DNA of 63,911 bases, counting the filler, from Kipferlia bialata (Eukaryota): assembly GCA_003568945.1 (NCBI GenBank). It is 5 parts of 3 records of this genome, joined end to end, with 100 filler letters (N's around TTAATTAATTAA, not from the genome) between each part and the next. Parts side by side here need not be neighbours in the genome. Positions count along the whole stretch, not along the records: positions 1 to 16,876 come from BDIP01000101.1; 4 more parts are not named here. The stretch is one strand, 5' to 3'. This document shows, piece by piece, positions 2,598 through 57,400 of this stretch. Below the pieces are notes generated by a model. That model had not been told where the DNA came from, made no database searches, and saw only the letters and a list, made by a program, of their open reading frames with translations. A program made the translations under genes and the position numbers. The first letter of the stretch is position 1, and every line of letters begins with the position of its first letter.

Positions 2598-2724
2598 CTG
2601 GGGTCAGGGGGGGGGGGGGGGCTGGGGGTTTGTTGTTTTTTGTTGTGTTTTTCCCCCCCCCCCCCCCCCTCTCTTCTCATGTCTCTCTCTACACCCACTC
2701 CCTTTATCTCCATCTCACATCCAG

Positions 2725-2812
2725 GTAGCAAGGAGACACCAGAGGACCCATCGTTAGGTATCCTACATATATATATGTATACATATATATATATATATAA
2801 ATATATATATAT

Positions 2813-2847
<35 letters not shown>

Positions 2848-3416
2848 AGAGGACCTATCACAAGGTGTATATATATATCTCGGTCTGACACGATATTGAT
2901 ACAATTGAGCCACATTGATTCGTACTGACACGTCATCATGTGCCCATCGGTGTATCTCTCTCTCTCTCTTTCAGTGTTCTAATGAATAGGCAATACATCC
3001 TCTGCCACCTCTGATGATCTCCCTCTCTCTCTCTCTCTCTCCCTCTACACACTTATTGTCAGGCCAGATCCAGAGACACCTCTCTCTCTCTCTCTCTCTC
3101 TCTCCCTCTACACCCTTATTGTCAGGCCAGATCCAGAGGCAGACCCTGGCAGACCTCAGTCTGACAAACAGCCTAGGTATGTATTACTATATATGTGTAT
3201 ATATATTTGTGTATGTATAATATCATTGGCAAGTATGCCAATGAAGTAGTGAGTCTCTATCTATATGCACTAAACCCTTATATTCAGGCCAGTATGAGAG
3301 AGAGGCAGGTCTAGAGGGAGAGACTGAGAGTGAGAGAGAAGCAGAGAGAGAGAGAGACCTACAGATGGATGGGTACCTCAACATGGTCGGTACGTATCTC
3401 TGTCTCCCTCTACCGT

Positions 3417-3447
<31 letters not shown>

Positions 3448-6400
3448 CTACACGTTGTATATGTGTTAATCTATCTTACCTCAGACACTCTCTCCCCCTC
3501 CCAGCTGGCACTGTTTGAGCACCTCTCTGCGGTCTACATTCCCGCTAAGAAGGTATGGGTTCGAGCCCCGCTCCATCTACTTTTATCTGATACCAGGTCT
3601 ACCCTGAGGTTGGCAAGGATGCCCTATCTTCCATGTCTCTCTCCCTAGGAGAGAGAGAGGCAGAGGCAGAGGCAGAGAGACTGGAGCTGGAGAGAGAGGT
3701 ACCTAAATGTACATATATCGCAATTATATCCGTATATGCGTCCACATATATAAAATTGTATTTTTGTATATATACTAACTATATAGGTATACATAGAGAT
3801 AAATATAAAGATACTGGAGCTGGAGAGAGAGGTTCGATCTATTTGTGTATATATGTGTATGTCCGTATTTCTGTTATTCTCTCTCTTACCGGTCGAGATG
3901 TACCTCTTGTATGATTATGTATATATACTACTATACCTAACTCCTAGGAGAGAGAGAGTGCCCAGCTGGGTGAGGTGGAGTCCAGCATACAGCAGGACAT
4001 CGGGCAGATCAGGTATATATTTTGTTATTCTATATCATATTTTTTGTATGGTGACAAATTATTATTCATTAATAATATTTGTCTCATTCTATATATAATG
4101 ATGAGTCCAGCATACAGCAGGACATCGGGCAGATAAGGTATATATTGTATATATCCTCTATATAGGAATGTATGCAAGCATGTATATATTCTATATACTG
4201 TATTGTACTCACCCCAGGGCTGTGATTGAGTACCAGGAGGATATACTATATGGAACAAAAAGACTCTATAAACTATACATATACTATATACTGTATATAT
4301 ACTGTATATGTACAATACTATATATATGTACATGTATGTGTGTATATACTCACCCCAGGGCTGTGATTGAGCAGACTCACAAATACCATGGTATATATGC
4401 CATATATACTATATACTATATTTACTCTCTACTATATATACTGTATTATCCTCACCCCAGGGCTGTGATTGAGCAGACCGAGAAGGGAGGATATACTCCA
4501 TATTCTACATATACTATATATACTATATATATATATATATTTATATATATGTGTGTGTTATTCTCACCCCAGGGCTGTGATTGAGCAGACTGAGAAGGGA
4601 GGGGTGGTGCCAGAGGGGAATGAGGTGAGAGTGTATTATATGAATATATATATATATATAAATATGGTTGAATATATAAATATATATAAATATGGTATAT
4701 ACATGTAGATGTATATACCTTCATATGTGTTTTTGTGATATGGTATTGTATATGTATATATTATGGTATGAAAGTATTGAAGGGAGGGGTGGTGCCAGAG
4801 GGGAACGAGGTGAGTATATAATATATGTATTCATCTCTATGGTGTATATATATACATATATATACATATATACCTTCGTATATATTTGACAATTAGGACC
4901 TCCTCACCAACCTGGGACCCAAGCTGGATGCACAATATGTATATATATGCTATCATGTATTATACACCTCAACTGTTGTATTTTACCTTAGTATATACCA
5001 ATATACCTCTAATCCCTAGGACCTCCTCACCAACCTGGGACCCAAGCTGGATGCACTAGTGGCCATGCGAAAGGTATGTTTTGTACTTGCTATAAACACC
5101 ATTATCTAACATATACAGTATTGCTAAAGACATTGTATTGTGTTGGAATGTTTCCCTGTGTGAGTGTTCTATTTATTTGTGATTCATTACACCCCTAATC
5201 CCAGGCCGGTGTTGCTGCCCGTATCAGAGAGGAGCGCAAGAATGGACAGGTACTCTCTCTCTGTCTCTCTCTGTCTCTCTCACACACACACAACACGTTA
5301 ATATGTACACATATACACCTCTATATTGTTCTACTTTCTCTCCCTTATTCACTACCATCTTCTACACCCTTAATTCAGATGGACCGCAGACAGGCTCATG
5401 TGAACAGAGATATCGCCGACGGAGGTATGTGTCTATGTATATATATAGAGAGAGAGAATATATACACGTTGCACAGAATTATTAGGAATAATAATGATCA
5501 AATAGAAAGTAGAGGAGTGTGTATTATTATTCACCTGTGTAATAACCCCCAGCTGGCCACCACATGCTTGGCTTCCCCATGTCTATATCATAAATCATAT
5601 ATTTATAATGAGATATAGAAATCATTGGTCATTATAATAGTATGATACATGTAATTACTTCATATAACCTCAGCCGGCCACCACATGCTGGGCTTCCCCA
5701 TGTCCCCATACACCAGACAGGCATTCTCAGGGGAACTAGATGTACGGGTGCATGAATACATATACATGTATACATATACATATATATGTATTATTTATAT
5801 GTATTATTGGAGAGTGGTAATTATTCCTAGACCCTTACTTTTGTCCCCATGTCCCCATACAAGCATTCTCAGGGGAACTGGATGTACGTATGCTGTACAA
5901 TCTCTCTCTCTCACACACACCCACACACCCTTATTCTCAGGGTGTCCATGTTCTCTAAATAGATACAGCTTTCTCTCTCTCCCCTACACCCTTATTTCCA
6001 GGGTGCCCCTGTTCTCGATATAGCTGAGCAAGTGGTGCGTAAAGAGAGAGAGAGACAGAGCATGGAGAGACAGCTGGAGAGGCAGAGGCAGATGGGTGTC
6101 AGCATGCCCAGTCTGCATGACACCAATGCATGTGTGCTCACACCACCATTCCCTAAGTTGCTACTGGTACGTGTGTGAATAGTATATAATCTATAGTGTA
6201 TAGCATACTTCATAATATACATATATATATATATATATAATATGTGTGTCAGGATGCCCAGTCTGCATGACACCAATGCATGTGTACTCACACCCCCATT
6301 CCCTAAGCTGTTACTGGTGAGTCTGACATGTATATATGTATATATATGTATATATATATATCAATATATATATATATATTCAGTAATTGAGCCATCACAT

Positions 6401-7413
6401 ACACATGGGATCTCTGTCTATGCTTGTTTCTCTCTCTCTACACTTCTAGTCTTTAACTCTAGGCCAGGTGTCCCTGGATGTTTGCTCAGTGGTGGAAGGA
6501 GAGGTATGACGTTATGTATCTGTTTGCTGTATTTCCCTGTGGGCTAGGTGTTCATATATCCCAAGGAGCAGACACTCTGCCTCTATTGGCTGAATACTCT
6601 CTTTCGCGTTGATCTAGTTGATAAATGTATGTATACATTATTGGTGTATGTATGTACATCTATATACCTCACTCTTGGGAGCAGTCTTTCTGCCTGTACT
6701 GGCTGTATACTCTCTCTCAGTCAAATTGATTGTATATGTATATGTAGGATCGATTTGGGTATGAGTATGTATATACATGTATATATATACTGACCCTAGG
6801 GAGGAGTCTTTCTGCCTGTACTGGCTGAATGCCCCCAGAGAGGCAGCCATACAGATGGTCAAGGAGGTATTATTAATGTGTATGAATATTCATTATATAT
6901 CTGTCTCAATAGGGAGAGAGAGATAGAGAGATAGTCCCCAGTATATATGCATGTATATTTCTATATCTATATCCTCATTGCCAGGCTGTTCTGAACGTGT
7001 GTGCGTGCATCACGCCTCCATACCAGCATACAGTGACAGAGCCAGAGGCAGAGGGAGAGACAGAGACAGAGGCAGGAGAGAAGGAGGGAGAGACTCCTGC
7101 TGATGAGACTGAGGCTGGTAATAAGAGTGTAGAGGGAGAGGGAGAGAGAGAGACCGAGACTGTACAAGAGGAGGGCGAGGTTATTGAGACAGTCATTAGG
7201 GATAGGGGGATGGGAGAGAGAGAGACTGTCATTAGAGTGTGCGGGGGACTGCTACTGGCAACAGTCATGCAGGAGGTAAGTATAACTGTTGATATACCTA
7301 TAAGTCAATTATATGGGTGAAGTTTTCATATATATATAATATACATGTGTAATAGTTTGTATATATATGTCTATATTTTTACTGCTCCTGGCCACAGTCA
7401 TGCAGGAGGTGTG

Positions 7414-7469
<56 letters not shown>

Positions 7470-7750
7470 TACGCCCCTTATACCTAGGAGGACCGTCTTC
7501 TGCTACCGAGACTGATCAGGGCACTTGGATTCATGCTAGGTATATATAGTATAGTCAAATGAATATATATATATATATGTGTGTGTGTGTAGGTAGGGTA
7601 TATGTATGCATATATATATGTATAAATAGGTGAGTATATATATTAGTGTATCAATATACATTGACAATGTACACACCAGGCTTCATGCTAGGTATAGGTA
7701 CATGTGTTTTTATTGGGTTTTCTCTCACCCTAGACCCTTCCTCTGTCAAC

Positions 7751-7785
<35 letters not shown>

Positions 7786-10700
7786 CCTAGACCCTTCCTC
7801 TGTCAACCGGTGTATCTGCCAGTCAGAGCCAGAGATACTCTCTCCACCCACCCTCACCGACATGGATGAGGGAAATAGGGGTGTAGAAGGAGAGAGAGAG
7901 AGAGAGAGAGGCCCTGGTGATGATTCCCCTCTTGTTCCCCTAGTACCCACTTTTGTCAGAGACAATCACAGGATAATCAGCGATGCCTGCGCTCTGGTAA
8001 GTGATTTCTCTCTCTCTCTCTCTCTCTTAACCAATATATATATATATTTGGTTACATGTATATGTGTATATACTATTATACCCACCTTTGTCAGAGACAA
8101 CCACAGGATAATCAGTGATGCATGCGGTCTGGTATGTAAATTATGTATAATCTGTACTCTCGCTACACCTTCTATATATATGGATCATGACTCATGCAGG
8201 CGCATTGGTACGATTCTCCCTCTCTCTCTCTCTACACCCTTAATTCCAGGTCCTAGAGCCCCTTACTCTCTCCCTCTCCGACTCCATGTCTGATGATTCT
8301 CTCTCTCTCTCTACACCCTTAATACCAGGTCCTTGAGCCTCTGACCCTCTCCCTCTCCGACTCCATGTCTGATGAGATTCACGGACCCATGTACTACATG
8401 GAGATAGACCAGGCTATCAGGTAAAGATATATGTATATATATATAGGTAGAGAGAGAGAGAGAGAGATCTATGCACTACATGGAGATAAACCAGGCTGTG
8501 AGGTAGAGACTCCTGTTCTTTCTGTATATCTCCCTGTTTTTGGTATGTGTGCTATTAGTCGCTATTCATGTGTATAATAGCCTCGTTACTTGTATGACTC
8601 TCCTCACCCCAGATACCTCTATCTGTCTGTCCTGGAGATATGCTCCACATACGCACACTACACAGAGAGGTACGGGTATTTGTGCTTTCTGTATACTTTT
8701 GTTTGAGAAGGTATGTTCTTATGTTTCACAGAGAGGTTCGTGTATTAGTGGATATATTACTACTAGTATTCGACGGAGTCTGAAAGTCCTATTTCGAGAG
8801 GATGTCTGGATATATCTGATAAATGATCTAGTTATCAAGTATATAGTACTCATCTCTAGGGAGAGAGAGATATCCAGGCTGAAGTCCCAGGGCGAGTGCA
8901 TAGACCACCTGTACTACCACAGACCAGTGGACAAGGCTGAGGAGGGTATGTATAGTGTATATATACGAGTAGATAGTATTTATATGTGGTGTATATACAT
9001 ATACTACCACAGACCTGTGGACAAGGCCGATGAAGGTATGTCTCTCTCTCTCTCTCTCTCTCGCTCTCTCTCTCCTTCTACACCCTTAATCCCCAGATGA
9101 CACACCCAGTGTGTATGACCCCAGCACAACCCTTGACAGGTATGTGTACTCACATATATATTTATATATATATATATATTAATATATGTATAATGAGTCT
9201 ACAAATGTGGTATTAGTATAATAAACACACATTTGTACTATTATACATATATACCAGTGTGTTTGATCCCAACACAACCCTGGACAGGTATGAGGGCATT
9301 TACATCTATATATATCTTTGACTCTTTAGTATAAGTATATATATATAATAACAGACATATATAGTTTATCTTAACAATATCATGTGTGGGGCTTGGACTT
9401 TGGGCATAATGGCTCTTACCCCAGAATTATTGACTCCGCTGCAAAGCTGGGTCATACATATATATGTATAATTGATTAATATATATATTCATTTCAATAG
9501 ATAAGCAAAACTCTAATAGAATCCTTACCCAAGAATTATTGACTCCGCGGCCCTCACCAAGGGCCCAGCTGGCTCATATATACTATATATATACATATAT
9601 AAGTATATAAATAGTAATATATATAGATATTTGCATTAACACCAGGATCATTGACTCTGCTGCCCTCACTAAGGGCCCCGCTGGCTCATACATGCAAGAC
9701 AGGGAGAGAGAGACTGCCTTAGAGGGTGCAGCTGGGGAGACTGGAACGTCTAAAACTGGTGAAGATGCGGCTGAGACTGATGTACCCCCTGGAGCGTCTG
9801 AAGCGTCTGAAACGGCCAGCCATCACAGCCAGTACGAGGAGTGGGCTAAGAGAGAGAGGTGTGTTCAGTATGGCGTGTGGATATATTGCAATATGTGGAG
9901 AATAGGTGAGATGTGTATATTTAATACTGCAACTTATCTTCAGGGAGAGACTGCGTGAGCAAGAGAGAGAGAACCAGATCAACCCTGAGACTGAAGTCAT
10001 GATCACAGACACGGCGGAGGTATAATATAGTGTATATTTATTCATATATAGTGTGTATATGTTATAGTTAAGAGAGAGTGTGTTGTATATGTGTATAGTA
10101 TATAATAATTCCTTCCCTGAGACTGAGGTCATGATCACAGACACGGCAGAAGTGTGTATATGTATATATTATACTAAATTATTATAGTTGTTGTATTATG
10201 CATACATATATATATATATATTGGTATAGTATGATTCCTACCCTGACACTGAGGTCATGATCACAGACACAGCTGAGGTATACTCTCATATACATGCATG
10301 CATATATTCACACGGTATTTTTGGTATACCAGTATGTATATATCAATATATATACAGTTAGTATTTAGGTAGAGTGTATATATATACTCAGTGACTGAGC
10401 TCATGATCACAGACACAGCAGAGGTATGTTTACATACATTATGTCTGTATGTGTGTGAATACCCTGGATGTCATATGTATATTGTGATATGTATACACTT
10501 ATGGTCTCTCTCTTCACCCTTATGTCAGCCTGTCCCTGTTCTGCCCACCCATCTCTCTCTCTCTCTCTCTGTCTCTCTCTGTCTCTCTCTCTCTCTCTCT
10601 CTATCTATCTGCACCCTTATACCAGCCTGTCCCTGTTCTGCCCACCCTCCTAGACCACGAGAGACACAGTGATAAGGTATATATACAGTGTGTATGATGA

Positions 10701-11225
10701 ACGTCAGTGATATAGTTATATAGTACCCCATGTATATGCATCTCCTAGACCACGAGAGACACAGTGATAAGGTGTGTATGTATATATATATATAATAGTA
10801 TTGAATACTGTACGTATTTGTATATAATATTATATAATGTATGTATATATATGATGAACGCCACAGAGAGACACAGTGATAAGGTGTGTAATTGTATATT
10901 TGGGGTATATTTGGGGTATATACTGTGTTTATGTGTTGAAACCATAAAGACACCTTTATGTTGTTGAATTTTCTCTCCTCTCCTAACGTCAGCTCTTCTC
11001 GGCCGCTCTCTCCACCGAAGCCGTACACCCAACGGTTGATATCCCATACCACTCCGATATTGAGATTGAGGGAGATGGAGATATGGATGGAGAGACTCCA
11101 GAGGGGCCATTTAACACTGTGGTGGTGCCCGTTGACTTTAACGTCCCTGCCACTATCACTGGGCTGGCTGCCATCATGATCAGGGTATGGATACATATAT
11201 AGACACATGCATATAAATAAATACC

Positions 11226-11260
<35 letters not shown>

Positions 11261-11610
11261 CTTTAGAGAGATAGAGAGAGAGAGAGAGTAGTCTGCCACT
11301 ATCACAGGACTGGCTGCCATCATGATTAGGTGTGTAATAATATATATATATATATATATATATCCTAGTGGGAGAGCGACCTGCCATCATGATAAGGGTA
11401 AGTGTGCCATGTCCTACTGTCCCCGCGATTCTTTCTCTCTCTCTCCCTACACCCTTTTTCTCTCCCTCTACACCCTTTATCTCACCCCTAAACCCTAATT
11501 CTCACCCCCAGTCTGGCAGGGGTATCCCAGACCAGTACTACTCCAGAGGTGAGTCCAGTCTCTCTCTCTCTCTCTCNNNNNNNNNNNCAGTACTACTCCA
11601 GAGGTGAGTC

Positions 11611-11643
<33 letters not shown>

Positions 11644-12120
11644 ATAATAATAATCTATGTGTATCCCAGACCAGTACTACTCCAGAGGTGAGTGTACATA
11701 TGTGTGTGAATACCAATTGCTGCCGTTCTTTACATATCTATGTATGTCAATCTCTGTCTTTCTCTCCATATGTGTATTCATGCTCACGTACAGTCACCAC
11801 TGTTCCCCACCCCATGCCGGATAGAGTCCTAGTGCGTGCCAAGAACGTACCAAGGGTCATCTACAACGCATTCTTCGATAGAGCATCAGGCAACAGTGAC
11901 GTGGAAAGAGAGAGAGAGAGAGACACTGGAACCGGTGTCGTGCCAAGTATGTTCTTGCAGGTCATTGTGCAGCAGAGAACGGCTGAGACGTCTGAAGCGT
12001 CTGAGGCGTCAAAGTCGCTAGAGGGAGAGAGAGAGAGTGATACAGCTGTGTATCTGGAGCCAGTGGCACCCGTGGAGCAGGAGGTTACTGATGCTAGGTG
12101 TGTATATTTACCATATATGT

Positions 12121-12158
<38 letters not shown>

Positions 12159-14157
12159 TTGTATATGCTAAGGTGACAGATGCAAGGTGAATATATATGT
12201 ACTATATACTCAATATATATATGCATTTTATCATTATTGTTCCGTATACACTATATATATGAATATTAACTGACCCCAGTTCCCTGGACCATCTGCTGGG
12301 CCACCCAGACTGTATATATATATAGAGAGAGAGAGCGATGTGTATTTGTATATTACTATCGTACCATATAGTTATATTACAACACATATACTCACCCCAG
12401 TTCCCTTGACCATCTGCTGGGCCACCCGGACTCACTGCTACAGGTGGCACAGGTACGCAAGCCTTGTTTGTAATACTCCTATAGTTATATATATACTGTA
12501 CTCTGTATATGTATGGTGTATCCTGGATCACTGCTCCAGGGGGTGGATCTATACATGCACATATATAGCATTATATATACATAGAAATGGGCATACCCTG
12601 TCACTGCTACAGGTGGCACAGGTAAGGATTGAAGAAATATAGACAGTCTGTATGCAACAAGTATTCATACATGTACATACTTATTTCCATAATGGTATAC
12701 AATAGTTAATCTCTTCTTCTGTATTTCTTCTTGTTCCTCTCTATGTGTAATTACGTATGCTGACTGTCAGATTGTGATGCGTGCCCCTCTTTCCACCTGT
12801 GTAGACAGTGTCACACAGAGGTATGATATATATATAGGTGTGAATATGTATATATTGGTTTATAGACATTGACCTATATGTGTATTAATAGTGCCCCCCT
12901 GTCCACCTGTGCAGACAGTGTCACACAGAGGTATTGTCAGTGTTATGTTGTATATCTACTCTCAAGCAGCGTGTGGCGGGTGTAGTTTATGCAGAAAGAG
13001 TGTACTCTGAATATCTCACTCACTCACTTTCTCTCTCTATATATATACTCTCACGCTAGGCTAGCCACTCTGAAGCAGCGTGTGGGTGGTGTAGTGCAGA
13101 TTCCCTATTCCCTATGTTTATATATACTCTATACTATACATACATTGTATAACTAACCCAAGGCCTCCAGCCATCAAGCAGCGTGTGGCAGGTGTTGTCA
13201 AGGATGGAGAGTGTACTCTCATAGATATCTCACTCACTCACTGTCTCTCTCTATGTGTATGCACTAACACAAGGCCTCCAGCCATCAAGCAGCGTGTGGC
13301 AGGTGTTGTCAAGGAGGGAGAGGGAGAGGGAGAAGAGCCACAGAAGCAGGTCAAGGCAGAACTCGTGGATGACGTAAAGGTACTTATACTGTAGTATGTA
13401 CTGTAATGTATCTCAACATAGATATGCTATTCATTCTACTATTCATTCTACAAGTATTATTGTCCATATATATTGTGGAGAAGCCACAGAAGCAGGTCAA
13501 GGCGGAGCTCGTGGATGACGTAAAGGTATGAATAGTATATAGTAACTGTATATATACACATAGTATTGGTTATTTATTATTGTTACAGACACAATTATAT
13601 ATGTATTTGCATTGTGTATGAAGCAGGTCAAGGCAGAGCTGGTGGATGACGTCAAGGTACTGTCAGTCAAAAATATATATTATATTCTAGTGTATGTATA
13701 TACCTTACAATATTACAATTCCGGATGGTGTTAACGTATAATGTATATACATGGGTCAAGGCAGAGCTCGTGGATGATGTCAAGGTATGGCAGTTTTATA
13801 AATGTATGCATATGTATATATGTTACTATGAATATAGTGGAGTATGTTCATGTTTATATTCTTGATTGTGTATGTATATAGTGGATACCTGGGACAGGTC
13901 AATGCAGAGCTCGTAAATAGGGGTGTAGTCGTGGATGATGTAAAGGTATAGATTGTAACAGTTTTACCAGATTACCATCATGCTCCTTGTGACATCTATG
14001 CTTGTACTGTATTCATAATAATATATATACATATCTTATAATACAATATTATATTGCAATCATTACAATCATTATTGCATATGTGAATGATGCTCCTGAT
14101 GATTGATGTACATGTGTATGGAGCTTCTATACCTTCATGTGCTGTTAAATATATAAT

Positions 14158-14214
<57 letters not shown>

Positions 14215-16633
14215 ATCAGTATAGGTATGACTCTCATGCCAGAATGCCTTCATGCGCTTTGCCAAGAGGAGGGGGTACATCCAGGAGGAGACTGAGGTAT
14301 GTATATGGTATTCATAAGGAGAGTATATATATGTGTGTGTGTTATATATGGACACACATACGTGTGTGCATGTAGATATATATGTATTTATGTAGGAGAG
14401 GATAGATCCAGGAGGAGACTGAGGTGTGTACTTCTACAAATTTATGTATAGTGATATGGGTGTAAATACCGTTATGTTATATACTGATAGGAGGCTCAGT
14501 ACTTGTACTCTTCAATATTCTTACACCCAGGAGCCAGAGACAGAAGTTGAGAACGGAGGGGAGACCAAGGAGGGAGAGGGAGAGGGTAAGGAGGTGGATA
14601 CTGTCGCAGAGAGTGCTGATACAGCCGTAGAGACACAGGGAGAGACAGAGACAGAGACAGAGAGAGAGACTAAGGAGGAGAAGGTTGATGCAGCCTCCAG
14701 TGATGCATCTGCACCTGCCTCCAAGCCCACCATCTTCGATGCCGCACGTGCAGCCGATGATAGTGCAGCTGCTACTGCCGTTACTTCCAAGGCCGGGGCT
14801 CCCTCCATCTTTGACGCTGCACGTGCCGCTGACTCAGCTAGTGCTGCTAGTGCTAGCGGTGCTAGTAAGGCCCCTGCTAGCACTACATCTACCCCCTCTA
14901 TCTTTGCTGCTGCACGTGCCGCAGATGCTACTGCAGCTACTACTCAGGCAGAGGCCCCAGCTAGTGCTGCGTCTACACCCTCAATATTCAGTCAGGCCAG
15001 GGCCGCAGATGCTGCTGGTTCTACCGCTAGTAAGGCAGACGCTCCCGCTAGTACCCCCTCCATCTTCAGTCAAGCTCAGTCAAGCTCAGTTAAGCTCAGT
15101 CAAGCTAGGGCCGCAGATACTAATGCCGCTGCCGCTGCTACTACTGTTGCCAATACTGGTGTAGCACCATCTACGGCCTCCCTCCCTACGACTACCCCCA
15201 CCCCCCCACCCCACCCCACCTTCTCCGTCCCCTCTCCCTTTGTGTACTATAGAGGGGTCAGGGAGAGAGAGAGAGAGAGACAGGCAGCAAAGAGAGAGGC
15301 AGGGGGAGAGAGTGCTACTGCTACCCGGGAGGAGCCCAAGTACATACCCTTCTCTTACGACACTCTGCTGGCCAACCTCATCAGGTATTATAGTATATAT
15401 ACAGTTTATATACAAATATCCTTCTCGCTCCATGACTGATATACCCGCAGAGACAGTATTTCTCTCTCTATGTATATATTTATGTATGTGTGTATGTACA
15501 CATGTATGTATCATACTGTAGTGACTGCTATGGCCCTGTGGACAAGGATCCCACGTCATAACATGTATAGTGGTATTCCATTGTCCATTGTATATTCATA
15601 TATATTCATAAATATATATTACTCTAACTGTAGTGACTGCTATGGCCCCAGGGACAAGGATCCCAATGCTGTGTCTGTGGCATCACTAGATAGAGTGAGC
15701 CTGGAGGACCTGGCAGGTATGTGTATGTATTGTATCTATATTCATTTACGCACATGTATATATGTATATATATGTGTCTATAATCACTGGACAGAGTGAG
15801 CCTGTAGGATGTGGCAGGTACTTAAACATATAGATATAAGTACATACCATTATATGCCATATATTTCTATACTTATTTCTATATGTATGGACGGCAGCTT
15901 GAGTCCTCAAAACCGTACGCCTATGGTTCTCTATTCTCTCTCTCTCCCTCTATCCCACACCCACTCTCTCCCTTTACCCCACCTATACTTACCTCCTGGC
16001 CCCCTCTCCTCTGTGTCTGTGTACTCACAGATTCTCTCTCTCTCTCTCTCTTTCTCTCTCTCCCTGTTATACTAACTTGTAGGCCCCCTATCTCATGTGT
16101 CTGTGTACTCACAGATTCTCTCTCTCTCTCTCTCTCCCTCCCTCCCTACCTTACTCCTAGGCCCCCTCTCCCATGTATCTGTGTCACTTGGCCTAACAGA
16201 GGAGAGACTTAACGAGAGGGCTAGAGACAGGTATATAATAATACACTAACATACATATATACTCAAGTTTGGAAAGTGTATTTGTATATATATACATATA
16301 TGTGGAGGGATGGGGATTAAACGAGAGGGCAAGGGATAGGTATGTCTATTACGTATCTATGCTTCTGGTTGTTGGGGGCTTGCAATCAGCAATGTGGTCC
16401 AGAGAGAAGTAAGGCTGAGTGCTCTCTCTCAGACTCACCCTCAGTATTCTCTCCCGTCCTGGCAGGGTCAACAAGAGTCAAGTCAAGGGGTCTCCAGCAG
16501 TCAACAAGGGCCTCCCTGAGTCACCTGGGGTCAAGGCCACTGCTCCCGGGTCCGAGGGGGAGAGAGAGAGAGAGAAGAAGCGGGAGAGAGACTCCTACTG
16601 TGTCTCTGGGATGGGGGCACTCCCTCTCTACAG
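2725..16633 (+). CDS. Large hypothetical protein, ~35 exons, incomplete at both ends
   Basis: Consecutive GT-AG exons join in frame, e.g. GQIQRQTLADLSLTNSL / ERESAQLGEVESSIQQDIGQIR / AVIEQTEKGGVVPEGNE / DLLTNLGPKLDALVAMRK / ARCPWMFAQWWKER / EESFCLYWLNAPREAAIQMVKE / IIDSAALTKGPAGSY / PPAIKQRVAGVVKEGEGEGEEPQKQVKAELVDDVK / NAFMRFAKRRGYIQEETE. No family recognised; it runs off the contig end. Confidence 0.75.
4208..4811 (+). repeat. Intronic echo copies of exon 4573-4624 (three acceptor echoes, one donor echo)
   Basis: ctcaccccag|ggctgtgattgag at 4208, 4349, 4451 and 4563 (functional); gaagggaggggtggtgccagaggggaaYgag|gtgag ending at 4624 (functional) and 4809. Confidence 0.9.
9985..10425 (+). 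repeat. Donor echoes of the exon ending ...PETEVMITDTAE
   Basis: actgaRStcatgatcacagacacRgcNgaR|gt at ~9990 (functional), ~10120, ~10247 and ~10394, separated by TA-rich spacers. Confidence 0.9.
12963..13947 (+). repeat. Echo array around exon 13274-13379 (three upstream, four downstream copies)
   Basis: aagcagcgtgtgg at ~12964, ~13073, ~13176 and in the exon; gtcaaggcRgaRctSgtggatgaYgtMaag|gta ending at 13379 (functional), 13525, 13656 and 13784, plus an interrupted copy ending ~13945. Confidence 0.9.
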
Positions 16634-16876: not shown

Positions 16877-16976
16877 NNNNNNNNNNNNNNNNNNNNNNNN
16901 NNNNNNNNNNNNNNNNNNNNTTAATTAATTAANNNNNNNNNNNNNNNNNNNNNNNNNNNNNNNNNNNNNNNNNNNN
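16877..16976. other. Artificial contig linker (N44-TTAATTAATTAA-N44)
   Basis: The same six-frame-stop linker flanked by Ns occurs four times in the window. Confidence 0.95.
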
Positions 16977-23786: not shown

Positions 23787-29878
<6,092 letters not shown>

Positions 29879-46938: not shown

Positions 46939-47844
46939 TCAAACAATCATCTTCTCGAAGTTGGAGGACCCGACTCGTATGTGCCTGGCCGGTCTGCCTC
47001 CCTTCGGTGTCACCTGCGCCATGAGCCACCGGAATGCGTAGTAGATGCTGTGACCTGGGATGAGACTTGGCAAACAAGCTGTCAAATCATGGGGAGTGTA
47101 TGTATATATAGATATACACACGGGTGTATGTGTATATATATATTCATACCTGTAAGGGCAGATACCCGGAGAACACGGAAGGGGCGGTGGTGGGTTAGTG
47201 GCCCGTCAAGTGAAAAGTACTCGACAACAGTCTCAAAACGTGCACAGGTATCTATGGTTGGTAACAGGGAACAGAGTGGGAGGCCAACTGCTACTGTATC
47301 TACTCACCTAAGTCGCACTTGTTGATCAGGAAGAGCACTGGGGTGTTGGCGGTGGCTAGGGTTAGAGGCCAGCTTGTGGAGAGAGTGTGCTATCTGTCTA
47401 AATATCTATCTATCTATCTATCCATCCGCAACACCATACCTTCGTCCTGCATGACCTGGGTGAAGTGTCGCCGGGCCTCAGCGAAGGAGGAGGCATCGGC
47501 ACCATCAATGATAAACACAATGGTCTGATGTGAGTGACATGGGAAGGAGTACATATATACATATATATATACTTATTCAGATTAGCAGTGCACGTACCGT
47601 TGCCGTGGCATATTGCACACTCCACTGCTTCCTGTAGCTGCTCTGCCCACCCATGTCGAAGATGGTGGTCTAGGATGAGAGAGGGGGGGGGGGAGAGAGA
47701 GGGAGTGTGTGTGTGAGAGAGAGAGACAAGATGTCGAAGATGGTGGTCTAGGATGGAGAGAGAGACATGGGCAGAGTGCTCATACCTGGGGATATATACG
47801 TAGAGAGGGAAAGAGAGAGACAAGATGTGGAATATGGTCGTCTG

Positions 47845-47876
<32 letters not shown>

Positions 47877-48692
47877 AGATGTCGAAGATGTCAGGGTGAG
47901 AGACACAATACACATGAATTGGAGCAGTGTCCTCAGTGCTGGCTCAATCACCCTATATATAACTATAGTATACTGCATTATAGACTATAGTATAGACCAT
48001 ACCTTGTATCCAAACATGCTGATGTGTCCGATGTTCTGCCCAATGGTTGGGGTGAGGAGGGAGTCGTCAGGATGGCCTGGGTGAGAGATGAATGAGTCAG
48101 TATCACTGGTGAGGGTCACTCAAACACAGCCACAGGTGGTTCCACAAGAATAGCCTCTATACACACAGACACATATGAGCCGGCCACAGCGCCATATACA
48201 GACTTACAGTGCGTTCCATATACCACAGTGCAACATACCTGGGTGGGATGACACAGCCCCAGGTACATGCATCAATATATTATATATAGTATATGTATAT
48301 ATGCATATAGTATATCAACTCAGTACCCCTATGCAACATACCTGGGTGGGATGACACGTCCAGCTCCTGCCTGGGGTCAGATTGGTGTATCAGTATCAGT
48401 ATCAGTATCAAGAATGAGGTTGGCAGGATCAGATTGGTGTTTCATGGACGAAGTTGATGCAATTGTATACGATGGAAAACCATAACCGGAGAGAGCCAGA
48501 GCACACACCACGCAACAAAACATCCACACACCTTGTAACAATGCTCATGATCCGGGTCATCGTTGTGGTCTTACCGCTGTTCTGAAGACCTGAGGTGAGA
48601 TTGGTACTGGATACAAAATAGTATACAATCCATCACTCACCCAGTATTACAACATTGGCCTTCTTCCCGATGCACCCACAGAAGTTTCCCAT
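46939..48692 (-). CDS. Arf-like small GTPase (9 exons)
   Basis: MGNFCGCIG...ILGLQNSGKTT (G1), PTIGQN (G2), IFDMGGQSSYRKQW (G3), IVFIIDGAD, LFLINKCDL (G4), SALTG (G5), AFRWL. Confidence 0.9.
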
Positions 48693-49103
48693 GTTTTCTT
48701 TTGTCCCAGAGGACCCTGGTTCTCTAAGGCCGCCAGAACACCAGCTTCAATGAATGACTGTGAAGAGACCACCCTCTCACAAAAAATCCATTTTTGATGG
48801 AGCCCTAGTCTACACCCTTTGTGCTGGATTCTAGAGCGACTATATAGAGTCTATACTCTCGGCCAGCGTAAACTCCGTCCAAAGGAAGGCTCAAGGCCTT
48901 ACATAGATAACACAGTGTTGGAATAGACTGAGTGGTTGCTCGGTCCTCTGATGTATATGCACAAGAAGCATGTCACACATATGTAAAGTGTTAAGGCCAG
49001 TGCACTTGTAAAAAGGCCAGTGCACTTGTAAATAACACGTCATTGTTCTCTATTAAGCCTTGAATATATATTCATACACATAGAGAGAAAGAGAGGGAGA
49101 GAG

Positions 49104-52100
49104 ATGCTGCTAGAATCACCGAGGCCAGTATTGCCTCAATGCAACGGACGAAACGCCCGATTCCAAAAAGGTTCGGTGTGCACTGGGTTATTGACTTTCT
49201 ACCCTGCTCTTCACCCAGTGACTCCTGCCTCTCCCCCGGTAGAGGGCACTGATGCATCTGAAGTGCCCTATATGCGGTGTAGGTGGGTGTATGGATTATA
49301 TGATAGGTCTGCCAGTAGTGGTGGTATCAGTATCAGAGTATTAGATACTGATACTGATAGTGGTGTATACACGGCATCACACTCTCTCCTCTGCTAAATC
49401 TTTGTCTCTCCACTATATGCTGTCTGAATACACGGGTTAGACATCCTCTGTGAACCCCTCTTACAGATATAACCCCCCCCCTCCCCCCTGCTCTCTCTCT
49501 CTCTCTCTCTCTCCCTCCCCCCCCCCCCCCCCCCCCCTTATTCCAGATGTTGATAGAGTAGTGGCTGGTCCCCACCACATGTTCTACAGATGCACTGTCA
49601 GACAGGCAGAGGCAGAGGCAGAGGCAGAGGCAGAGGCAGAGAGTGGAGTCGACACCCCCTCCAGTCACCTCTGGTTCTGTGCCGGACTCAACGCCACAGG
49701 GCAGCTGGGACTAGGTATACATATATATATATATGGGTATATGTATGAACAGACAGACTCAACGCCAGGGCAGCTGGGACTAGGTATATATATGAATATA
49801 TATGGGTATATATATATGAACAGGCAGACTCAACGCCACAGGGCAGCTGGGACTAGGTACACTATATGCTGAGTGTTCTAATACTTCCCCCATGCCCTGC
49901 CTCAGTCCAGATAATGTGTAATATCTATGTAGATGAATATGTACACATATATGGACATCCGTACTTATACTGCCACTGACCCAGGTCCCTCCTCTGCCCC
50001 GATAGTGTCTGAGCCCACCTTCCAGCCCACGCTGTCTCTGGAGTGCCCCCTGGCCCTTTCCCTGGGGGCAACGCACTCACTATGCATATCAGGTACACAC
50101 TCACTATGCATATCAGGTGCACATATAGGGTTACATATACACCCAACCCCCCCCCCCCCCCAATGCCAGGTGAGACTACCGCCCCCGCACCTGATGTGTC
50201 GGGTGAGGATGCCAACACGTCCACCCCTGCCAGGCACAGGGTGTATGTGTGTGGCAACAATGACTACGGGCAGCTCAGCACAGAGCCCAGGTATCGTGTC
50301 ACTATATATATCCATTGGTGACACATGTTTGTGTATGTATATCCCCACCCCTAATGACTACGGGCAGCTCACCACAGAGCCGAGGTATTGTATCGACGTA
50401 TTTTCACTAATAACCCATATATCTATGTATATACCTGTCCCACCCCAGGCCTGAGCGTCTGAGGACACCCAAGCACAAGAGACAGAGACAGAGGGAGAGG
50501 AGGAGGGAGAGAGAGAGAGAGAGAGGGTCCACCCCAAGAGGTGTCACCAGCAGTAGGCTCTCCCACAGCACCCCTGTCACACCCAGTGGTATTGAGGGCG
50601 CAGAGGGAGAGAGGTCAGGGAGAGGGACAGTGGCCTTTGTGAACCCTTTATCCACCAGACAGGGGGGTCAGAGAGAGAGAGACAGGGTCAGAGAGTCTGG
50701 TCTGGCCAGGTCTAGACTGGGTGTATCTGCTGTGACAGTGAGTGACAGTCCGTCCACCCCTGGGACGGGGGAAGGGGTAGAGAGGGAGGGGGAGGGGCTG
50801 AGTGTGACACCCAGTGCCAAGACTCATGATGCTCTCTCTCTGTCTAAGGGGGTGGAGGTATCAGGAGGCGACACGCCGAGAGAGAGAGAGAAGGCCCCCC
50901 GTATCAACACCCGTGTCAACATCACCCCTGGGTTTGATGCCCACCCCCTGCTGTCCCTGTCACCCCACACAAGGCTATACGCCTCGTGGCACTCAAACAT
51001 AGCAGTGTCAGGTGGGTGTCAGTATGTATACGAGAGGTGTATCGTGGTATATGTTGGGACCTCTGAGCACTAAGTCCTGTATGGCATATTAGTGTTCTTC
51101 TCCCAATAATAGTTCCAGCTGGGTATCATGGTACAGTATACGTGTGTTTGTACCAGGGTATGTATATATTGATGTGAATCACTTGTTTCCTTTTGTCTAT
51201 GACCCCAGGCCCCTCCCTTACCATGTCATGTGGGGCAGATGGCACAGTGTCTATAGGGTCTGGACCGTGCATGGTCAACAAGGTGGGGGGTGGTATGTGT
51301 ATGTGTATGTGTATAGCATATGATGGTATGGTGATACTGACACTGACACTGATTCATGTGCAACAAGGTGGAGGGCTGTCATGTTGCATTCTATGACACA
51401 GGTTGTCTTAGAATGCTATGAAGTTCAATTCATACAGAGTACAAAGATACCCTGACCCCAGCTCTTCTTCTGGGGCAGGACCAGCTGCATCAGGGGCATG
51501 CCTAGGGGGCACAGGTGAGAAATGTATCTGAATGTGTGTATTGGTGTATATATATATAGGTGTGTGTGTGTGGCTATCCAGCTGCATCAGGGGCATGCCT
51601 AGGGGGCACAGGTGAGTATATTATATGATGCTTGACTTTATATCACACTCTATTAGCCAAGGGGACACAGGTGATGTATCGGTAAGAGTCTATCTAAAAT
51701 ATGATATCTCTTACCTACACTTGTACTTTGAGTTGGATTCCACTCCTCTGTATCACTCCCTCCCACCCCTCACCCACAGATACCTCTCTGCGCCAACTAT
51801 GATTGAAACAGACAGGATGGTAGAGACAGAGGCCGAGGCCCCTACCACCGGTGGGGAGTGCCCGCTTGTGGAGCATGTGGCCCTGGGCAGATACATAGTG
51901 TGCATAGTCATAGGGGGGAAGGTGGGTGCAGAGGGGTATACTGTATATACTGTGTAGTGAATACTAATACATATGTATACTGATGCAGATGTATAGTGTG
52001 TATGTGGTGTGGCTGATGAGGGGTGTAGGGGCATTGTATGTGTGAATACGTATTCCACTTGACTGACCCCCCAGGCCTATGTAGCTGAGTACCAAGAGGA

Positions 52101-54040
52101 GAGGGAGAGAGAGGCAGATGCTGAGGCAACCCCCCTCTCCCCACTCTCCCCACTCTCCCCTGCGTCTCCCACTAGTGACACTAACAATGTCACTGACAAT
52201 GGTGACCCTGTGGGTGAGAGGGAGAGAGAGAGAGAGGGTGCCTCACAGACAGAGACCCCTAGGGCCAGGAGGGCCAAGAGAGGTGGTGCTGTGTACCTAG
52301 TGCCCTTTACATCAGACACGGGGGAAGGGGTGCACGGGGTGGTGCAGGTGGGTGTTGTATATCATTATTGCCAGACATACATTGTCCCCATAGAGATGGT
52401 GTATGACCAGTATCCATAGTACTTCACTATCCTCTGTTAGACCTGGGTCCCTGCCTATGGGTAGAGTATCAGGATGTATAGTGTCTATATATAGTGTTTT
52501 ACCATTGTTTCCATGTATACACCCCTGACCCAGGTCTCTGCGTCCTGTTCGGGTGACCACCACCTACTGCTGTTCACAATGGCAGATGGGTCTACTAGAT
52601 GCTACAGGTAGATCTACATGCATAACAAATACATATATATGTATAAAGATCGGGTACGTGTATATATATACATGGATGGATTGGTCCACTAGATGCTACA
52701 GGTACATGTGTGTGTGTATTGATCGGTATCTATGCCTATACCCTCTGACCCCCAGGTGTGACAAGGACTGTCTCCCTGTGGAGGACATGTCTCTGATACC
52801 ACAGTCCCTATGTCTACCCAGCCCATACCCTAGCACAGACACAGCACTTAGGGGACTAGGGGGTGCCTATGCCACCGCCACCCACATATGCATGTGGAGG
52901 GGAGGGGTGTCTGGGGTAGAGACTGTACACACACGGCAGAAGGGAGAGGGAGAGACTGAGAGCCTTGCGTCCCTTGCACTCAGTGGCCCTGTGGTCACAC
53001 CCCATACAGACACAGTGCCTGCAGAGACACTACATGGTGGAGAGGAGGACATGCCTGTGGCAGTCACTGATGCTGATACTGGGACTGGTGCTCCATCCTC
53101 TGCTGTTGACACTGTTGCCACGGGTGGAGATGAGGGGGTACATGCAGTTCTTGAGGCAGAGAGACGGGAGAGAGAGAGGGAGAGACAGGAGTTGATGGCT
53201 GAGCAGGCCAGGATGGAGGGTGTGATAGGGACATTGGAGAGTGATGTACAGACACTGAGGGAGGAGAGAGAGAGAGAGAGAGAGAGCGCCGAGGGTGTCC
53301 TTTCCACCCACAAGGCCCTTCTAGCGGAGAGAGAGGGAGAGAGAGATGCCGCCCTGGCTGAGCTTGAGATGATTAAGGGTGCAGTGGAAGAGATGGAGGC
53401 ACGGGTTGAGAGGGAGAGGGAGATGGAGAGGGAGGAGAGAGAGACAAGGGAGAGAGAGATGGGAGAGGAGCGGGAGGAGTGGGAGAGAAAGACTAGGGAG
53501 ATGGAGAGGGAAGCGCAAGAGAGAGAGAGAGAGCTCGAGGCTGAGAGACAGCGCCTGGCTGATGTCACTTCACAGCTACGGATAGAGGCCTCTGCCTATG
53601 AAAGAGAGGTTGCATCTCTGACCCAGAGAGAGAGAGAGGCGTCACAGGAGTTGGCTGTACTGAGAGAGAAGGTGGAGGCAGAGAGACAGAGGGGGAGAGA
53701 GAGAGAGGCCTTGGCTGCAGAGTCACAGAGACAGAGCGTAGAGGACGCACTGAAGAGAGAGAGGGAGCAGAGAGAGAAAGAGACGGACCTGCAGCGCCTG
53801 CAGAGCATGTGCTTCCCGTCTCCCCCTCTCCCCCTACCCCCTGTAACCGAGAGTCAGGGTGGGTCAGCCCCTCCCTCTGTGTCCCTCTCTCTCTCTCTCT
53901 CCTCTGCCCTAGAGGGCGATGTGTACCAGGGCAGCACACCCATCCTGGCCCAGGTGCAGAGGGCCCTAGACAGGAGTGGGGAGATGACACTGCGCATGAT
54001 GGGACACGCCCCTATGGATAGCTACCTCGACATGCTATGA
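49104..54040 (+). CDS. RCC1-repeat protein with long C-terminal Glu/Arg coiled coil
   Basis: VAGPHHMF...CAGLNATGQLGLG; LSLGATHSL; VYVCGNNDYGQL (RCC1 signatures). The last exon is a long ER-rich coiled coil ending DSYLDML* at 54040. The start codon is tentative. Confidence 0.7.
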
Positions 54041-54430
54041 GGGGGGGTGTATGATGCAGAGCATGATGTGGTCTGTCCGTGTGGGTGGATGTATATGTAG
54101 TGTGGTCCTTATGCAATGGTGTGTGTGTGTTTGTTCGTGTTGTTTGTAATGTTCTTTGTTGTTCGCACCATTGCTTCTCTGTTTAGAACTGTAAGATCGG
54201 AGATACTTGCAGAACAGTCTGAATAGAGTGTATATCAGAATGCGTGGATACAGCTATATTATACATTGGTTGCCATGGATCATCTCGCGTCCCCATTTCA
54301 GTGAGATTGAGGGAGAATCCCACATGATATGTCCCATATCCCGTGTATTCCACTAGTCTTAGTCGAATGTCGTCTATCTGTCTTCAAAGACACATACATA
54401 CACCATGCATATACAGTGGGCATATCCCCT

Positions 54431-57400
54431 CTATTCTAGTAGCCGGAGTGTCTCCTGTGACAGCAGCCCACTCATTGCGAGGTCTGGGTTGTCTAGCAGT
54501 ATAGGGGGGGCAGTGCTCCTGGACATTATGACCCGGATGATGCAGTTGGCCCTGGGGTGAGACATACTCAACACACACATATATGTATATATAGCTACAT
54601 ACTGACATAAATATGAACTATGTGGATTGATATGATGGCCCTGATGATGCAGTTGGCCCTGGGGTGAGGGGTCTATATACATACATTGCACACACACACA
54701 CACACGGAAGAGTCCGTGTCAGTATGTAATATTGACTATGTATACATTGCCATACAAGAATAGAGAAGATAGCCATTATAGTATACATACACACACACAC
54801 ACACACACACCCACACCTATTGAGCACTGCGTGCAGTGTGAGGTGCTCTACATCGAGGGGTGACCCGATGGCTGTGTTCCAGTCCCGGACCATGCTCTCG
54901 CCTGGAGTCAGCGTGTATATCAGTATGCACATATAGTATACACCCCGCTGCCACCTGGCACCGACATCAGTGTATATGTCTGTATGTATATCCCCACCTG
55001 GCACCAACATGCACACTGACGATGCCTGGTCAATGAGGCCCATGGATATGGATATGCTCTGCCTGTGCCTCCACTCAGACAGAGAGTGGATGGACTCAAT
55101 GGCTGAGAGGGAGGGGGGGTGGGGGTCTGGGTCTGGGTCAAAGTACCCCCTGCCCAGCCTGTCCCCGAGGGTGTCACCCCTATCACAATCACCATCACCA
55201 TCACCCACCCTATCACCCCCATGTCTGTATGCCATGGTATCACCCCCCTCCCCCTCCCCCTCCCCCTGTGCCATATATACAAGCCTGGACCCATCCGTGT
55301 CTGCCTCTGTCACCCGTCTGCCCCACCCAGCCACACCCCCTCCTGAGGGTCACGGTATCGATATACATGTATATACAGACACTGTCATACACACCCAAGG
55401 CCTAGTAGATACACCCACCTAACCGCATCCCTAGGAGCAGTACTAGGGGCCGACCCGGCATCAGATAGTCTATCAGGCGCTGGTTGTAGTCTCTGGGGTG
55501 TTAGGGAGAGGGGGAAGGGTGGGAACTGCTGGACTTGACTCTAGATTTATAGAGTCGTATGAGATTATTAGGAGGGAATTAGGAGTACATATTTGAACCA
55601 ATGTCATAACATGCATATGACGTTACCAAGAGAGAGACTTGCAGTTACTGTATGGAAACACTAGTGGATATTCTTTCATGTACAGTAGCATTGGTCATAA
55701 CCCAACGTTCAGCGTTGCCTCACGACACTCACTTCCAACATGACATCATATACATCAGTCTATATACATCAGTCATACACATCATGTGTGGCCATACCCA
55801 CCGGACACACACCTATACATAGCATCACTCACATACAATGGTACACACACTATGCTGTCAGACTGGTGTAAGTATATCAAGTACCCACCTGACACACAGC
55901 TTGGGAGACTGGATCAGGGAGTTGTCTGGGGTCAGTGGTCAATGACAGCATCAATGTCAGTACCAACGTAAGTCCAAGGGCCATAGGGACTAGAGGTGTA
56001 TGGGAATAGAGGTGTGTGTGGAGGTATGGCATGATACATGAAGAAATCTGTATCAGTCAGACACTGATACTGCATGTCTACATACATACTGTGACTGGGT
56101 GGGTATGACACATATGTACAGGAACCCAACATCTATACATATACCAGTATATATCATATCGAATACATATAGTCCCTAATAGTCATATATACCAATACAT
56201 GTATCCCAATATACCTATGTCCAGGAACTCACACCCTGGGGGTAGCTCTATGCGTGTGTACCCCTTGTAGGGTGTGACTGGTACCCCCCCTCCTCTGATA
56301 CCATGCCTAGTGCCTCCATGCCTATTAGTGTCTCTAGTGTCTGAGCTGGTGTGCATGGATAGGGACAGCAGCTGTGCATTGCCTGACACAGGGGCACAGG
56401 CCCAGAACAGAGACACCCGGTCCCAGCTGATGAACTGGCCTGGGGGTTGAGACACAGGGGCAGGATATATATATATATATACATAGAGAGAGAGAGATGG
56501 ACACCCTGTCCCAGCTGATGAACTGGCCTAGGGTAGGGGTATAGGTGTGTATGTATATATATGTATACATTGATGTATAAAGAGAGAGGGAGAGAGATGG
56601 AGACCGTGTCCCAAGTAAGGGTTGAGAATCAGGGGTGTGAATCACTATGCATATGTTTATGCACACACACACATATATAATAGATAGAGGTATAGTATGG
56701 AGCCGCACCCTTGCTTCTAAAGAGATCCCCTATGGCTGAGAGTATGTCACAGTCTACACCCACATACACCCTGCCGTTGGGGTGTTTGGCCAACAGACAC
56801 TGGGGGTCAGAGAAACATGGCACATATGTATGTATCAATGTATAGATATATCAATGTATTACAGCACCCCATACTGACACCATCCTTGGTCTCCACTCTG
56901 ATATAGGCATACGTCTACGAATGCATCTCTTTCTGTTATATATGTGCACACACCTTGATCTCTGTGGCCACCACTTTGGACACATACATAGGTACATGTA
57001 TATACAAGTGTGTATACCTTTATGTATATATGCACCCATACACCCATACACACCTTGATTTCTGTGGCCACCACTTTGGATGCCTCTCTCACATACTGGG
57101 GCCACGAGTCACACAGCCTAGGGGTCAGTGGGGGAAGGTGTACCAGTGACACAGTATGTACTGTTTCATATATATACATATATATACATATATACATATA
57201 TACATATATATATGAATATATAATGGCCAGCAGGCACACTGCCCGGGGATGGGATGGCAATGAGTATACGGGTAATAGAGTAGATGTCCACAGATATATA
57301 CTAGTGTATCTGTACAACCATCATCAGATCAAGCAGTCAACTAGCAGTACAGACATTGTACCTACAGTCCGTGACCCCAGTATCAGTGTCAGTGTCAGTA

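What the first reader, a model, noticed from the sequence alone, without database searches (positions are those of the whole stretch)
3984..5075. Strict nested polarity: real donor, donor echoes, acceptor echoes, real acceptor
Seen: in intron 4013-4572 the order is real GT, donor echo (GT at 4138), three acceptor echoes with the identical ctcaccccag (AG ending 4217, 4358, 4460), then the real acceptor. The next intron repeats it (donor echo ending 4809, acceptor echo ~4897). I found no acceptor echo lying upstream of a donor echo within an intron, which would create a spurious exon. Spacing of ~100-150 nt is similar to ordinary intron length here. Echo length also rises toward the functional exon (13, 19, 30 nt). 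Inference: long introns may be removed stepwise as nested introns, or splicing relies on strict exon definition to ignore sequence-perfect decoys.
Basis: partly seen in the sequence, partly recalled or inferred. Interest (0 to 1): 0.72.

Follow-up and report, generated by a model that had tools for sequence, protein, structure and literature searches.

The report
Stranded exon edges from diverged alleles
The introns of this protist gene are packed with partial copies of the neighbouring exons, splice sites included, which a spliced contig skips where tested and which differ from the working exons mostly at silent positions, so they are likely leftovers of DNA repair between diverged alleles rather than a new way of splicing.

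Summary
The gene (33 exons identical to a protein named Kipferlia bialata KIPB_000813) carries 50 exon-edge 'echoes' in 26 of 34 introns; donor echoes precede acceptor echoes in 10 of 10 mixed introns. That order needs no splicing rule: any tandem duplication spanning one splice site produces it. Nested splicing is not supported: 16 of 26 echo-bearing introns have only one echo kind, and a spliced contig joins first donor to last acceptor where tested. The surprise is elsewhere. Echoes differ from their exons at 49 of 239 four-fold sites but 32 of 964 zero-fold sites (ratio 6.2; a neutral copy allows at most 2; p 4e-7), differ from each other mostly silently, and carry different but still valid splice signals, while donor-side intron flanks are unrelated. 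Each echo was probably a working exon edge on another, about 20% silent-diverged haplotype, stranded when homologue-templated break repair overshot into the intron and was end-joined. Up to five copies per site imply repeated contact between diverged alleles. DNA reads were not available, so an assembly origin is unlikely but not excluded.

The parts
3948..4012 (+). working exon 6 (65 nt)
   Evidence: open frame in the 35-exon model, peptide found in P0001
4103..4137 (+). donor echo: last 35 nt of exon 6, one silent difference, followed by GT
4218..4247 (+). acceptor echo, 13 nt intact plus a 12-base remnant shared with the far end of the 4461 echo (eroded copy)
4359..4377 (+). acceptor echo, first 19 nt of exon 7
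4461..4490 (+). acceptor echo, first 30 nt of exon 7, one silent difference; candidate left half of an older exon 7
4573..4624 (+). working exon 7 (52 nt)
4779..4809 (+). donor echo, last 31 nt of exon 7, one silent difference; overlaps the 4461 echo by 9 nt on the exon, candidate right half of an older exon 7
4897..4933 (+). acceptor echo, first 37 nt of exon 8, identical, with a different branch-point region
5020..5073 (+). working exon 8 (54 nt)
2725..16633 (+). host gene, 35-exon model, 1371 open codons, 50 echoes in 26 of 34 introns; protein of unknown function
7791..8502 (+). exons 17-18 with donor echo 8079, acceptor echo 8250 and donor echo 8471; spliced contig carries the working exons' letters and skips the echoes
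13274..13945 (+). exon 30 and a stack of four donor echoes, each with its own silent variants and its own donor sequence
47731..57380 (.). 16 further echoes in 13 of 21 introns of three other genes (two on the minus strand)

Best explanation
The echoes are intronic partial copies of the adjacent exon edges, each with its splice site, that are skipped in the spliced contig tested and are likely former working exon edges of other, diverged alleles, probably stranded when break repair copied from a homologous chromosome overshot into its intron and was closed by end joining. Shown: the copies, their order, their codon-biased divergence, their distinct valid splice signals, their skipping at exons 17-19. 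Follows from geometry: a colinear duplication across a donor leaves the extra copy just downstream, one across an acceptor just upstream, so the order donor, donor echoes, acceptor echoes, acceptor is automatic; duplications that take a whole exon or break it would be purged (inferred). Inferred mechanism: in a diploid cell a break inside a ~50-nt exon can pair only with the homologue's exon, because the AT-rich introns of diverged alleles no longer align; synthesis runs through the template's splice site and 50-150 nt of its intron, finds no homology to return by, and is joined by microhomology to the old broken end. The new edge becomes the working one, the old edge stays as an echo, both having been under coding and splicing selection until then. 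Overshoot on both sides splits the old exon into an acceptor echo and a donor echo around the new copy. Mispairing of echo and exon then multiplies units (shared junctions), and older copies erode. The spliceosome likely ignores echoes because they lack a partner site across an exon-sized distance.
For: Four-fold 49/239 vs zero-fold 32/964 differences, ratio 6.2, p 4e-7 against the ceiling of 2 for a neutral copy beside a constrained exon (all 50 echoes); ratio 6.5-8.6 with 48 echoes, trimmed ends, each variant counted once, or nearest echoes only. Echo against echo 15 silent vs 7 replacing changes, neutral share 0.22, p 5e-6. Silent differences are GC-symmetric (33 vs 35), replacing ones lean to AT (15 vs 7), as for diverged coding copies with later decay. 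Echo donors differ from their own working donor at 77 of 168 bases yet score like real donors (1.23 vs 1.35; background -1.0; 0 of 2000 decay simulations reach it); acceptors 72 of 208, 24 of 2000. Donor-side flanks are no more alike than unrelated introns (p 0.31, n 28), even behind identical echoes. Near and far echoes are about equally diverged. Nearest acceptor and donor echoes tile the exon within -5..+10 nt in 5 of 10 cases, 2.1 expected, p 0.02, window chosen after seeing the data. One contig version only at exons 17-18, with the working letters at 5 of 5 and 8 of 8 diagnostic sites.
Against: No second allele or strain was seen: the donors are inferred, not found (one protein hit; one contig version). 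In the three other genes the ratio is only 3.2 (7/56 vs 9/230), not distinguishable from 2 (p 0.25), so the strong signal rests on one gene. Acceptor-side flanks are often homologous (6 of 16 above the control 95th percentile, p 9e-5), within-intron spacers are slightly more alike than between-intron ones (11 of 74 above the 95th percentile, p 0.017), and some echoes are plain recent tandem copies (49738-49859, 50095-50116), which fits ordinary same-chromatid duplication. 8 of 48 echoes have more replacing than silent changes. Tiling is not significant with two of three windows tried (p 0.05, 0.07) and fails for 4 of 10 exons (gaps 13-126 nt). K. bialata has XPF and ERCC1, so loss of flap trimming cannot be the cause. 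No DNA reads were examined.
Confidence: 0.55

Rival explanations
1. Ordinary same-chromatid tandem duplications across a splice site, followed by very fast microsatellite turnover of the intron part; the silent bias comes later, from short allelic gene conversions that refresh exon or echo.
For: Shared junctions between stacked echoes (4236/4486, 10693 region), homologous acceptor flanks in 6 of 16, recent tandem units at 49738-49859 and 50095-50116; explains polarity equally well.
Against: Alone it caps the four-fold/zero-fold ratio at 2 (observed 6.2-8.6) and predicts decayed splice signals (0 of 2000 simulations); donor flanks are unrelated even behind identical echoes. With conversion added it still needs diverged alleles.
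Confidence: 0.2
2. Assembly artefact: pieces of several haplotypes of a diploid or mixed culture were chained in tandem.
For: Echoes look like alleles; species reported diploid; one duplicate beside an N gap (11588-11603) is such an artefact; no DNA reads were tested.
Against: Junctions are seamless; echoes hold internal stops, frameshifting deletions and an insertion (5855, 13482, 13895, 15783, 49766) and eroded shared junctions, which working alleles would not; up to five distinct versions per site; depth at exons 17-18 is one contig each at 85% likeness.
Confidence: 0.08
3. Nested or stepwise splicing: echoes are kept because long introns are removed inside-out.
For: Echo splice signals score like real ones; the inner segment 4138-4217 is an ordinary-sized intron with good signals; order is strict.
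Against: 16 of 26 introns have one echo kind and 4 of 10 mixed ones are unbalanced; recursive AG|GT sites mostly lack an acceptor signal; splicing cannot select for silent codon positions; the introns are long only because of the echoes.
Confidence: 0.07
4. Echoes are under present coding selection because they reach protein, through minor isoforms or by recombining into the exon often enough to be selected.
For: Strong silent bias.
Against: The contig tested has only the working exons' letters; 38 of 44 echo sites would shift frame or hit a stop; several echoes are broken; frequent exchange would homogenise copies, not leave 20% silent divergence (inference).
Confidence: 0.06

Closest known systems
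Human F7 intron 7 VNTR (37-bp repeat spanning the exon-intron boundary; PMC1557585, abstract seen)
   Same: Duplication across a donor leaves silent, sequence-good pseudo-sites downstream; the most upstream site is used.
   Different: F7 is one head-to-tail minisatellite of near-identical units; here most introns of a gene carry echoes on both sides, units are 100-150 nt with unrelated donor flanks, and copies show coding-type divergence.
[quoted passage not shown]
   Same: Homology-initiated copying that runs into non-homologous sequence and is rejoined by microhomology, without classical NHEJ.
   Different: Shown with a sister-chromatid reporter over kilobases in mouse cells; here inferred for 50-150 nt tracts from a diverged homologue, fixed in a natural genome.
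Tandem genomic duplication and double-strand-break repair as intron-making processes (PMC3443670 and PMC4202315, passages seen)
   Same: Local duplications and break-associated AT-rich insertions reshape introns.
   Different: Those make new introns with 4-12 bp direct repeats or duplicated AGGT sites; here no intron position is gained, repeats are 13-75 nt exon edges, and old splice sites are replaced.
Nested U2 introns, stwintrons and recursive splicing (PMC6616335, passages seen)
   Same: Good splice sites inside a longer intervening sequence.
   Different: No outer splice signal is interrupted, sites are mostly unpaired, AG|GT ratchet points are mostly absent, and the inner sites come with exon copies.

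Membership tests
Stwintron | inner intron interrupts the donor, branch point or acceptor of the outer intron | tested here: not met
   outer GT and AG with branch region are intact in all 34 introns of the model
Nested U2 introns | paired inner donor and acceptor for every layer | tested here: not met
   16 of 26 one kind only; 4 of 10 mixed unbalanced
Nested U2 introns | inner-junction intermediates or lariats | not testable with these tools
   only assembled contigs of one run were on hand; they drop rare forms
Recursive splicing | ratchet point: acceptor AG directly followed by GT | tested here: not met
   4 of 23 AG|GT donor echoes reach the weakest real acceptor score; 1 of 16 acceptor echoes starts AG|GT
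Tandem duplication across a splice site (F7 type) | extra copy of exon edge plus splice site next to the working site, silent in mRNA | tested here: met
Tandem duplication across a splice site (F7 type) | intron flank duplicated together with the exon edge | tested here: inconclusive
   not met for donors (p 0.31), met for part of the acceptors (6 of 16)
Tandem duplication across a splice site (F7 type) | copies diverge neutrally after birth (four-fold/zero-fold ratio at most 2) | tested here: not met
   6.2-8.6 in the main gene; 3.2, not significant, in three other genes
Homologue-templated repair with end-joined termination | template allele identified that supplies exon edge and intron flank | not testable with these tools
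   no genome held, no second strain or allele found
Homologue-templated repair with end-joined termination | microhomology or small overlap at the junction | tested here: inconclusive
   overlaps of 9, 10, 1, 1 nt and gaps of 4-126 nt between paired halves
Homologue-templated repair with end-joined termination | recombinase and Ku-independent joining enzymes present | tested here: met
   from the literature only: Dmc1 pair, Pol theta, Spo11 listed, Ku70 not

The most novel reading that the evidence does not exclude
Kipferlia genes undergo recurrent exon-edge replacement between hyperdiverse alleles: Dmc1-driven repair pastes in a homologue's exon with its intron flanks and leaves the old halves stacked in the introns, so one assembly holds a readable record of up to five ancestral haplotypes per exon, i.e. 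evidence of repeated outcrossing at about 20% silent divergence in a free-living metamonad, plus thousands of natural decoy splice sites.
Probability: 0.35. Interest if true: 0.82.

Novelty: new variant of a known kind. Interest (0 to 1): 0.62.

Why it matters
If the allelic origin holds, introns here archive past recombination partners, giving evidence for sex and a diversity estimate from a single genome in a group where, by PMC8516963, sexual processes have not been directly observed. It would also show a repair outcome that lengthens introns by about 130 nt per event and swaps splice sites without moving intron positions. Independently of origin, a short-intron protist with a reduced spliceosome (87 of 174 proteins found, no snRNA candidates; PMC6679479) skips decoy sites as good as the real ones, which makes exon versus intron definition directly testable. 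Echoes also mislead gene prediction (the annotated N-terminus reads through one).

Tried and rejected
No whole genome is held, so the genome-wide count of echo order could not be made; 5 gene models in this window were used instead. No RNA holder is on record; the one run listed, X1, is a guessed RNA run kept as contigs; its word share 0.18 equals the exonic share 0.182 of the stretch searched and its contig is spliced. X1 was laid on 7700-8430 only, so the finding's own intron has no RNA test. The joint 8130-8328 printed is not echo use: the tool skipped a repeat stretch and laid the exon-17 end on the echo with 5 mismatches, with exon-17 letters as the loose end; 32 further pieces were not shown. 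Pfam found 0 families in P0001; the protein atlas did not answer, so the gene's function is unknown. Two of the 50 echoes were dropped from then on: 15433 (weak, no AG) and 11588 (beside an N gap). The ABC-transporter model (35 introns, 3 echoes) has one unresolved frame break near 27580 and was used only for intron limits and splice-site weights. Frame preservation of echo sites: none (shifts mod 3 not different from even, p 0.22). Earlier findings: three look-ups, nothing. Literature: 9 searches found no description of such echoes in Kipferlia or of codon-biased intronic exon edges; the library lacks most subscription journals, and the papers on Kipferlia were searched by passage, not read whole. 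I did not establish which assembly or study the window or X1 belongs to; statements from the species' genome paper are background only.

Full report
Observation. The window is an intron-dense eukaryote scaffold set. A repeat scan showed that the same kind of copy occurs in dozens of places between 2725 and 16633 and in clusters at 47600-57500. Taking the first donor and last acceptor of each intron gives 35 exons and 1371 codons without a stop. A search with one exon returned a single protein, P0001, named by its sources Kipferlia bialata KIPB_000813; exons 2-34 of my model occur in it letter for letter. It has no Pfam match.

Catalogue. An edge-anchored scan found 50 echoes in 26 of 34 introns, 45 of 50 with GT or AG in register; 36 of 68 adjacent comparisons hit against 21 of 2244 non-adjacent controls. 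Donor echoes precede acceptor echoes in 10 of 10 mixed introns (1.1e-4 at random). Each echo adds about 131 nt. Density varies by gene: 7 echoes in 9 introns, 6 in 8 and 3 in 4 in three other genes, 3 in 35 in an ABC-transporter-like gene with median intron 67 nt. None of those introns has both kinds, so they do not test the order.

Polarity. A colinear duplication across a donor leaves the spare copy downstream of it; one across an acceptor leaves it upstream. An acceptor echo before a donor echo in one intron would need a transposition. The order therefore follows from geometry. The 13-19-30 gradient is erosion: the shortest echo keeps the far-end junction of the longest. Nearer echoes are longer in 8 of 10 untied pairs, with counter-examples at 12528 and 10693.

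Splicing. Nested removal is impossible in the 16 of 26 introns with one echo kind and insufficient in 4 of 10 mixed ones, including the finding's. Ratchet sites are mostly absent, and 38 of 44 echo sites would shift frame or hit a stop. One run, X1, a guessed RNA run kept as contigs, holds a share of words equal to the exonic share. Laid on 7700-8430, its record 2 carries exon-17 letters (5 mismatches to the echo, exon-17 sequence as loose end), joins exon 18 with no mismatch and runs on into exon 19: three echoes skipped.

The unexpected result. Echoes are not neutral copies. Against their exons they differ at 49 of 239 four-fold and 32 of 964 zero-fold sites (positions 1, 2, 3: 20, 17, 88); a neutral echo beside a fully constrained exon gives at most a two-fold ratio, observed 6.2, p 4e-7, 6.5-8.6 under stricter counting of 48 echoes. 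Echoes differ from one another by 15 silent and 7 replacing changes (p 5e-6). Silent changes are GC-symmetric, replacing ones lean to AT. Echo donors differ from their own working donor at 77 of 168 bases yet keep consensus (0 of 2000 decay simulations), acceptors at 72 of 208 (24 of 2000). Behind donor echoes the intron is unrelated to the working intron start (p 0.31), whereas acceptor flanks are partly homologous (6 of 16). In the finding's two introns all 3 differences are silent. So each copy seems to have worked as exon edge and splice site while it diverged, and decayed a little afterwards: internal stops, deletions and an insertion occur in five echoes. Against generality: in the three other genes the ratio is 3.2 on 16 differences, not significantly above 2.

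Mechanism (inferred). The simplest source of functional, diverged copies is other alleles. In a diploid (PMC5874029 passage) lacking Ku and Rad51A, with two Dmc1, Pol theta and Spo11 (PMC8516963 passages, section 10 and supplementary rows), a break in a short exon can pair only with the homologue's exon; copying that runs into the non-aligning intron must end by microhomology joining, as described for mouse cells (PMC5104497 abstract). That replaces the working edge and strands the old one. Two-sided events would split the old exon: the nearest acceptor and donor echoes tile exons 7, 11, 24, 28 and 33 within -5..+10 nt (5 of 10, 2.1 expected, p 0.02 post hoc; exon 30 misses by one base; four exons do not tile). 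Echo-exon mispairing can then duplicate units, as shared junctions show. All 29 donor-side spacers of this gene are 50 nt or longer, which may reflect selection against echoes close enough to compete. Stacks of up to five near-equidistant versions need more than two haplotypes, hence repeated outcrossing or polyploidy. XPF and ERCC1 are present, so lost flap trimming is not the cause. No template allele was found.

Rivals. Plain tandem duplication explains order and some recent units but not the codon bias or conserved-yet-different splice signals (0.2). An assembly artefact accounts for one gap-side duplicate but not for broken, eroded, seamless copies (0.08); DNA reads were not available. 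Nested splicing as the reason 0.07; present coding function 0.06.

Comparison and novelty. The closest cases are the human F7 intron-7 repeat with silent pseudo-donors (PMC1557585 abstract), break-associated intron change (PMC3443670 and PMC4202315 passages) and fungal nested introns (PMC6616335 passages), which this fails on defining features. Nine literature searches found no account of such echoes. I file it as a new variant of a known kind: duplications across splice sites, unusual in density and in their signature of past function. Labels for neighbouring genes (ABC transporter, RCC1-like, ARL-like, RING-like) are recalled from motifs and come from no call.

Noticed in passing
window 2600-2680: A poly-G run and a poly-C run join the intron of a minus-strand gene to the intron of the plus-strand gene; both genes lack their starts here, which looks like a misjoin of two contigs.
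   Followed up: no
window 3020-3130 and P0001 residues 1-36: The annotated N-terminus reads through CT-rich intron and the acceptor echo at 3063; the open model instead has an exon at 2725-2757. Echoes can mislead gene prediction.
   Followed up: partly
window 16877-18360: P0001 residues from 1389 map beyond the 100-base gap; the annotated protein may fuse two genes.
   Followed up: no
window 11577-11603: Sequence duplicated on both sides of an 11-N gap: a scaffolding artefact that mimics an echo; left out of later counts.
   Followed up: yes
window 12958-13211: Older acceptor-side echoes of exon 30 encode a different but in-frame peptide start, suggesting a more distant allele; AAG is used as acceptor here.
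   Followed up: partly
window 49685-49859 and 50070-50116: Recent tandem units with homologous flanks, including a 24-nt period duplication across a donor, in an RCC1-like gene (label recalled from motifs).
   Followed up: partly
window 23908-29880: ABC-transporter-like gene (label recalled from motifs) with only 3 echoes in 35 short introns; one acceptor echo copies a conserved motif with mostly third-position changes.
   Followed up: partly
window 46900-48700: Small ARF-like GTPase gene on the minus strand (label recalled) with a donor echo and stacked acceptor echoes, so conserved housekeeping genes carry them too.
   Followed up: partly
window 60150-62540: Two tandem paralogues of a small cysteine-rich (RING-like, recalled) gene with the same exon layout and diverged introns.
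   Followed up: no
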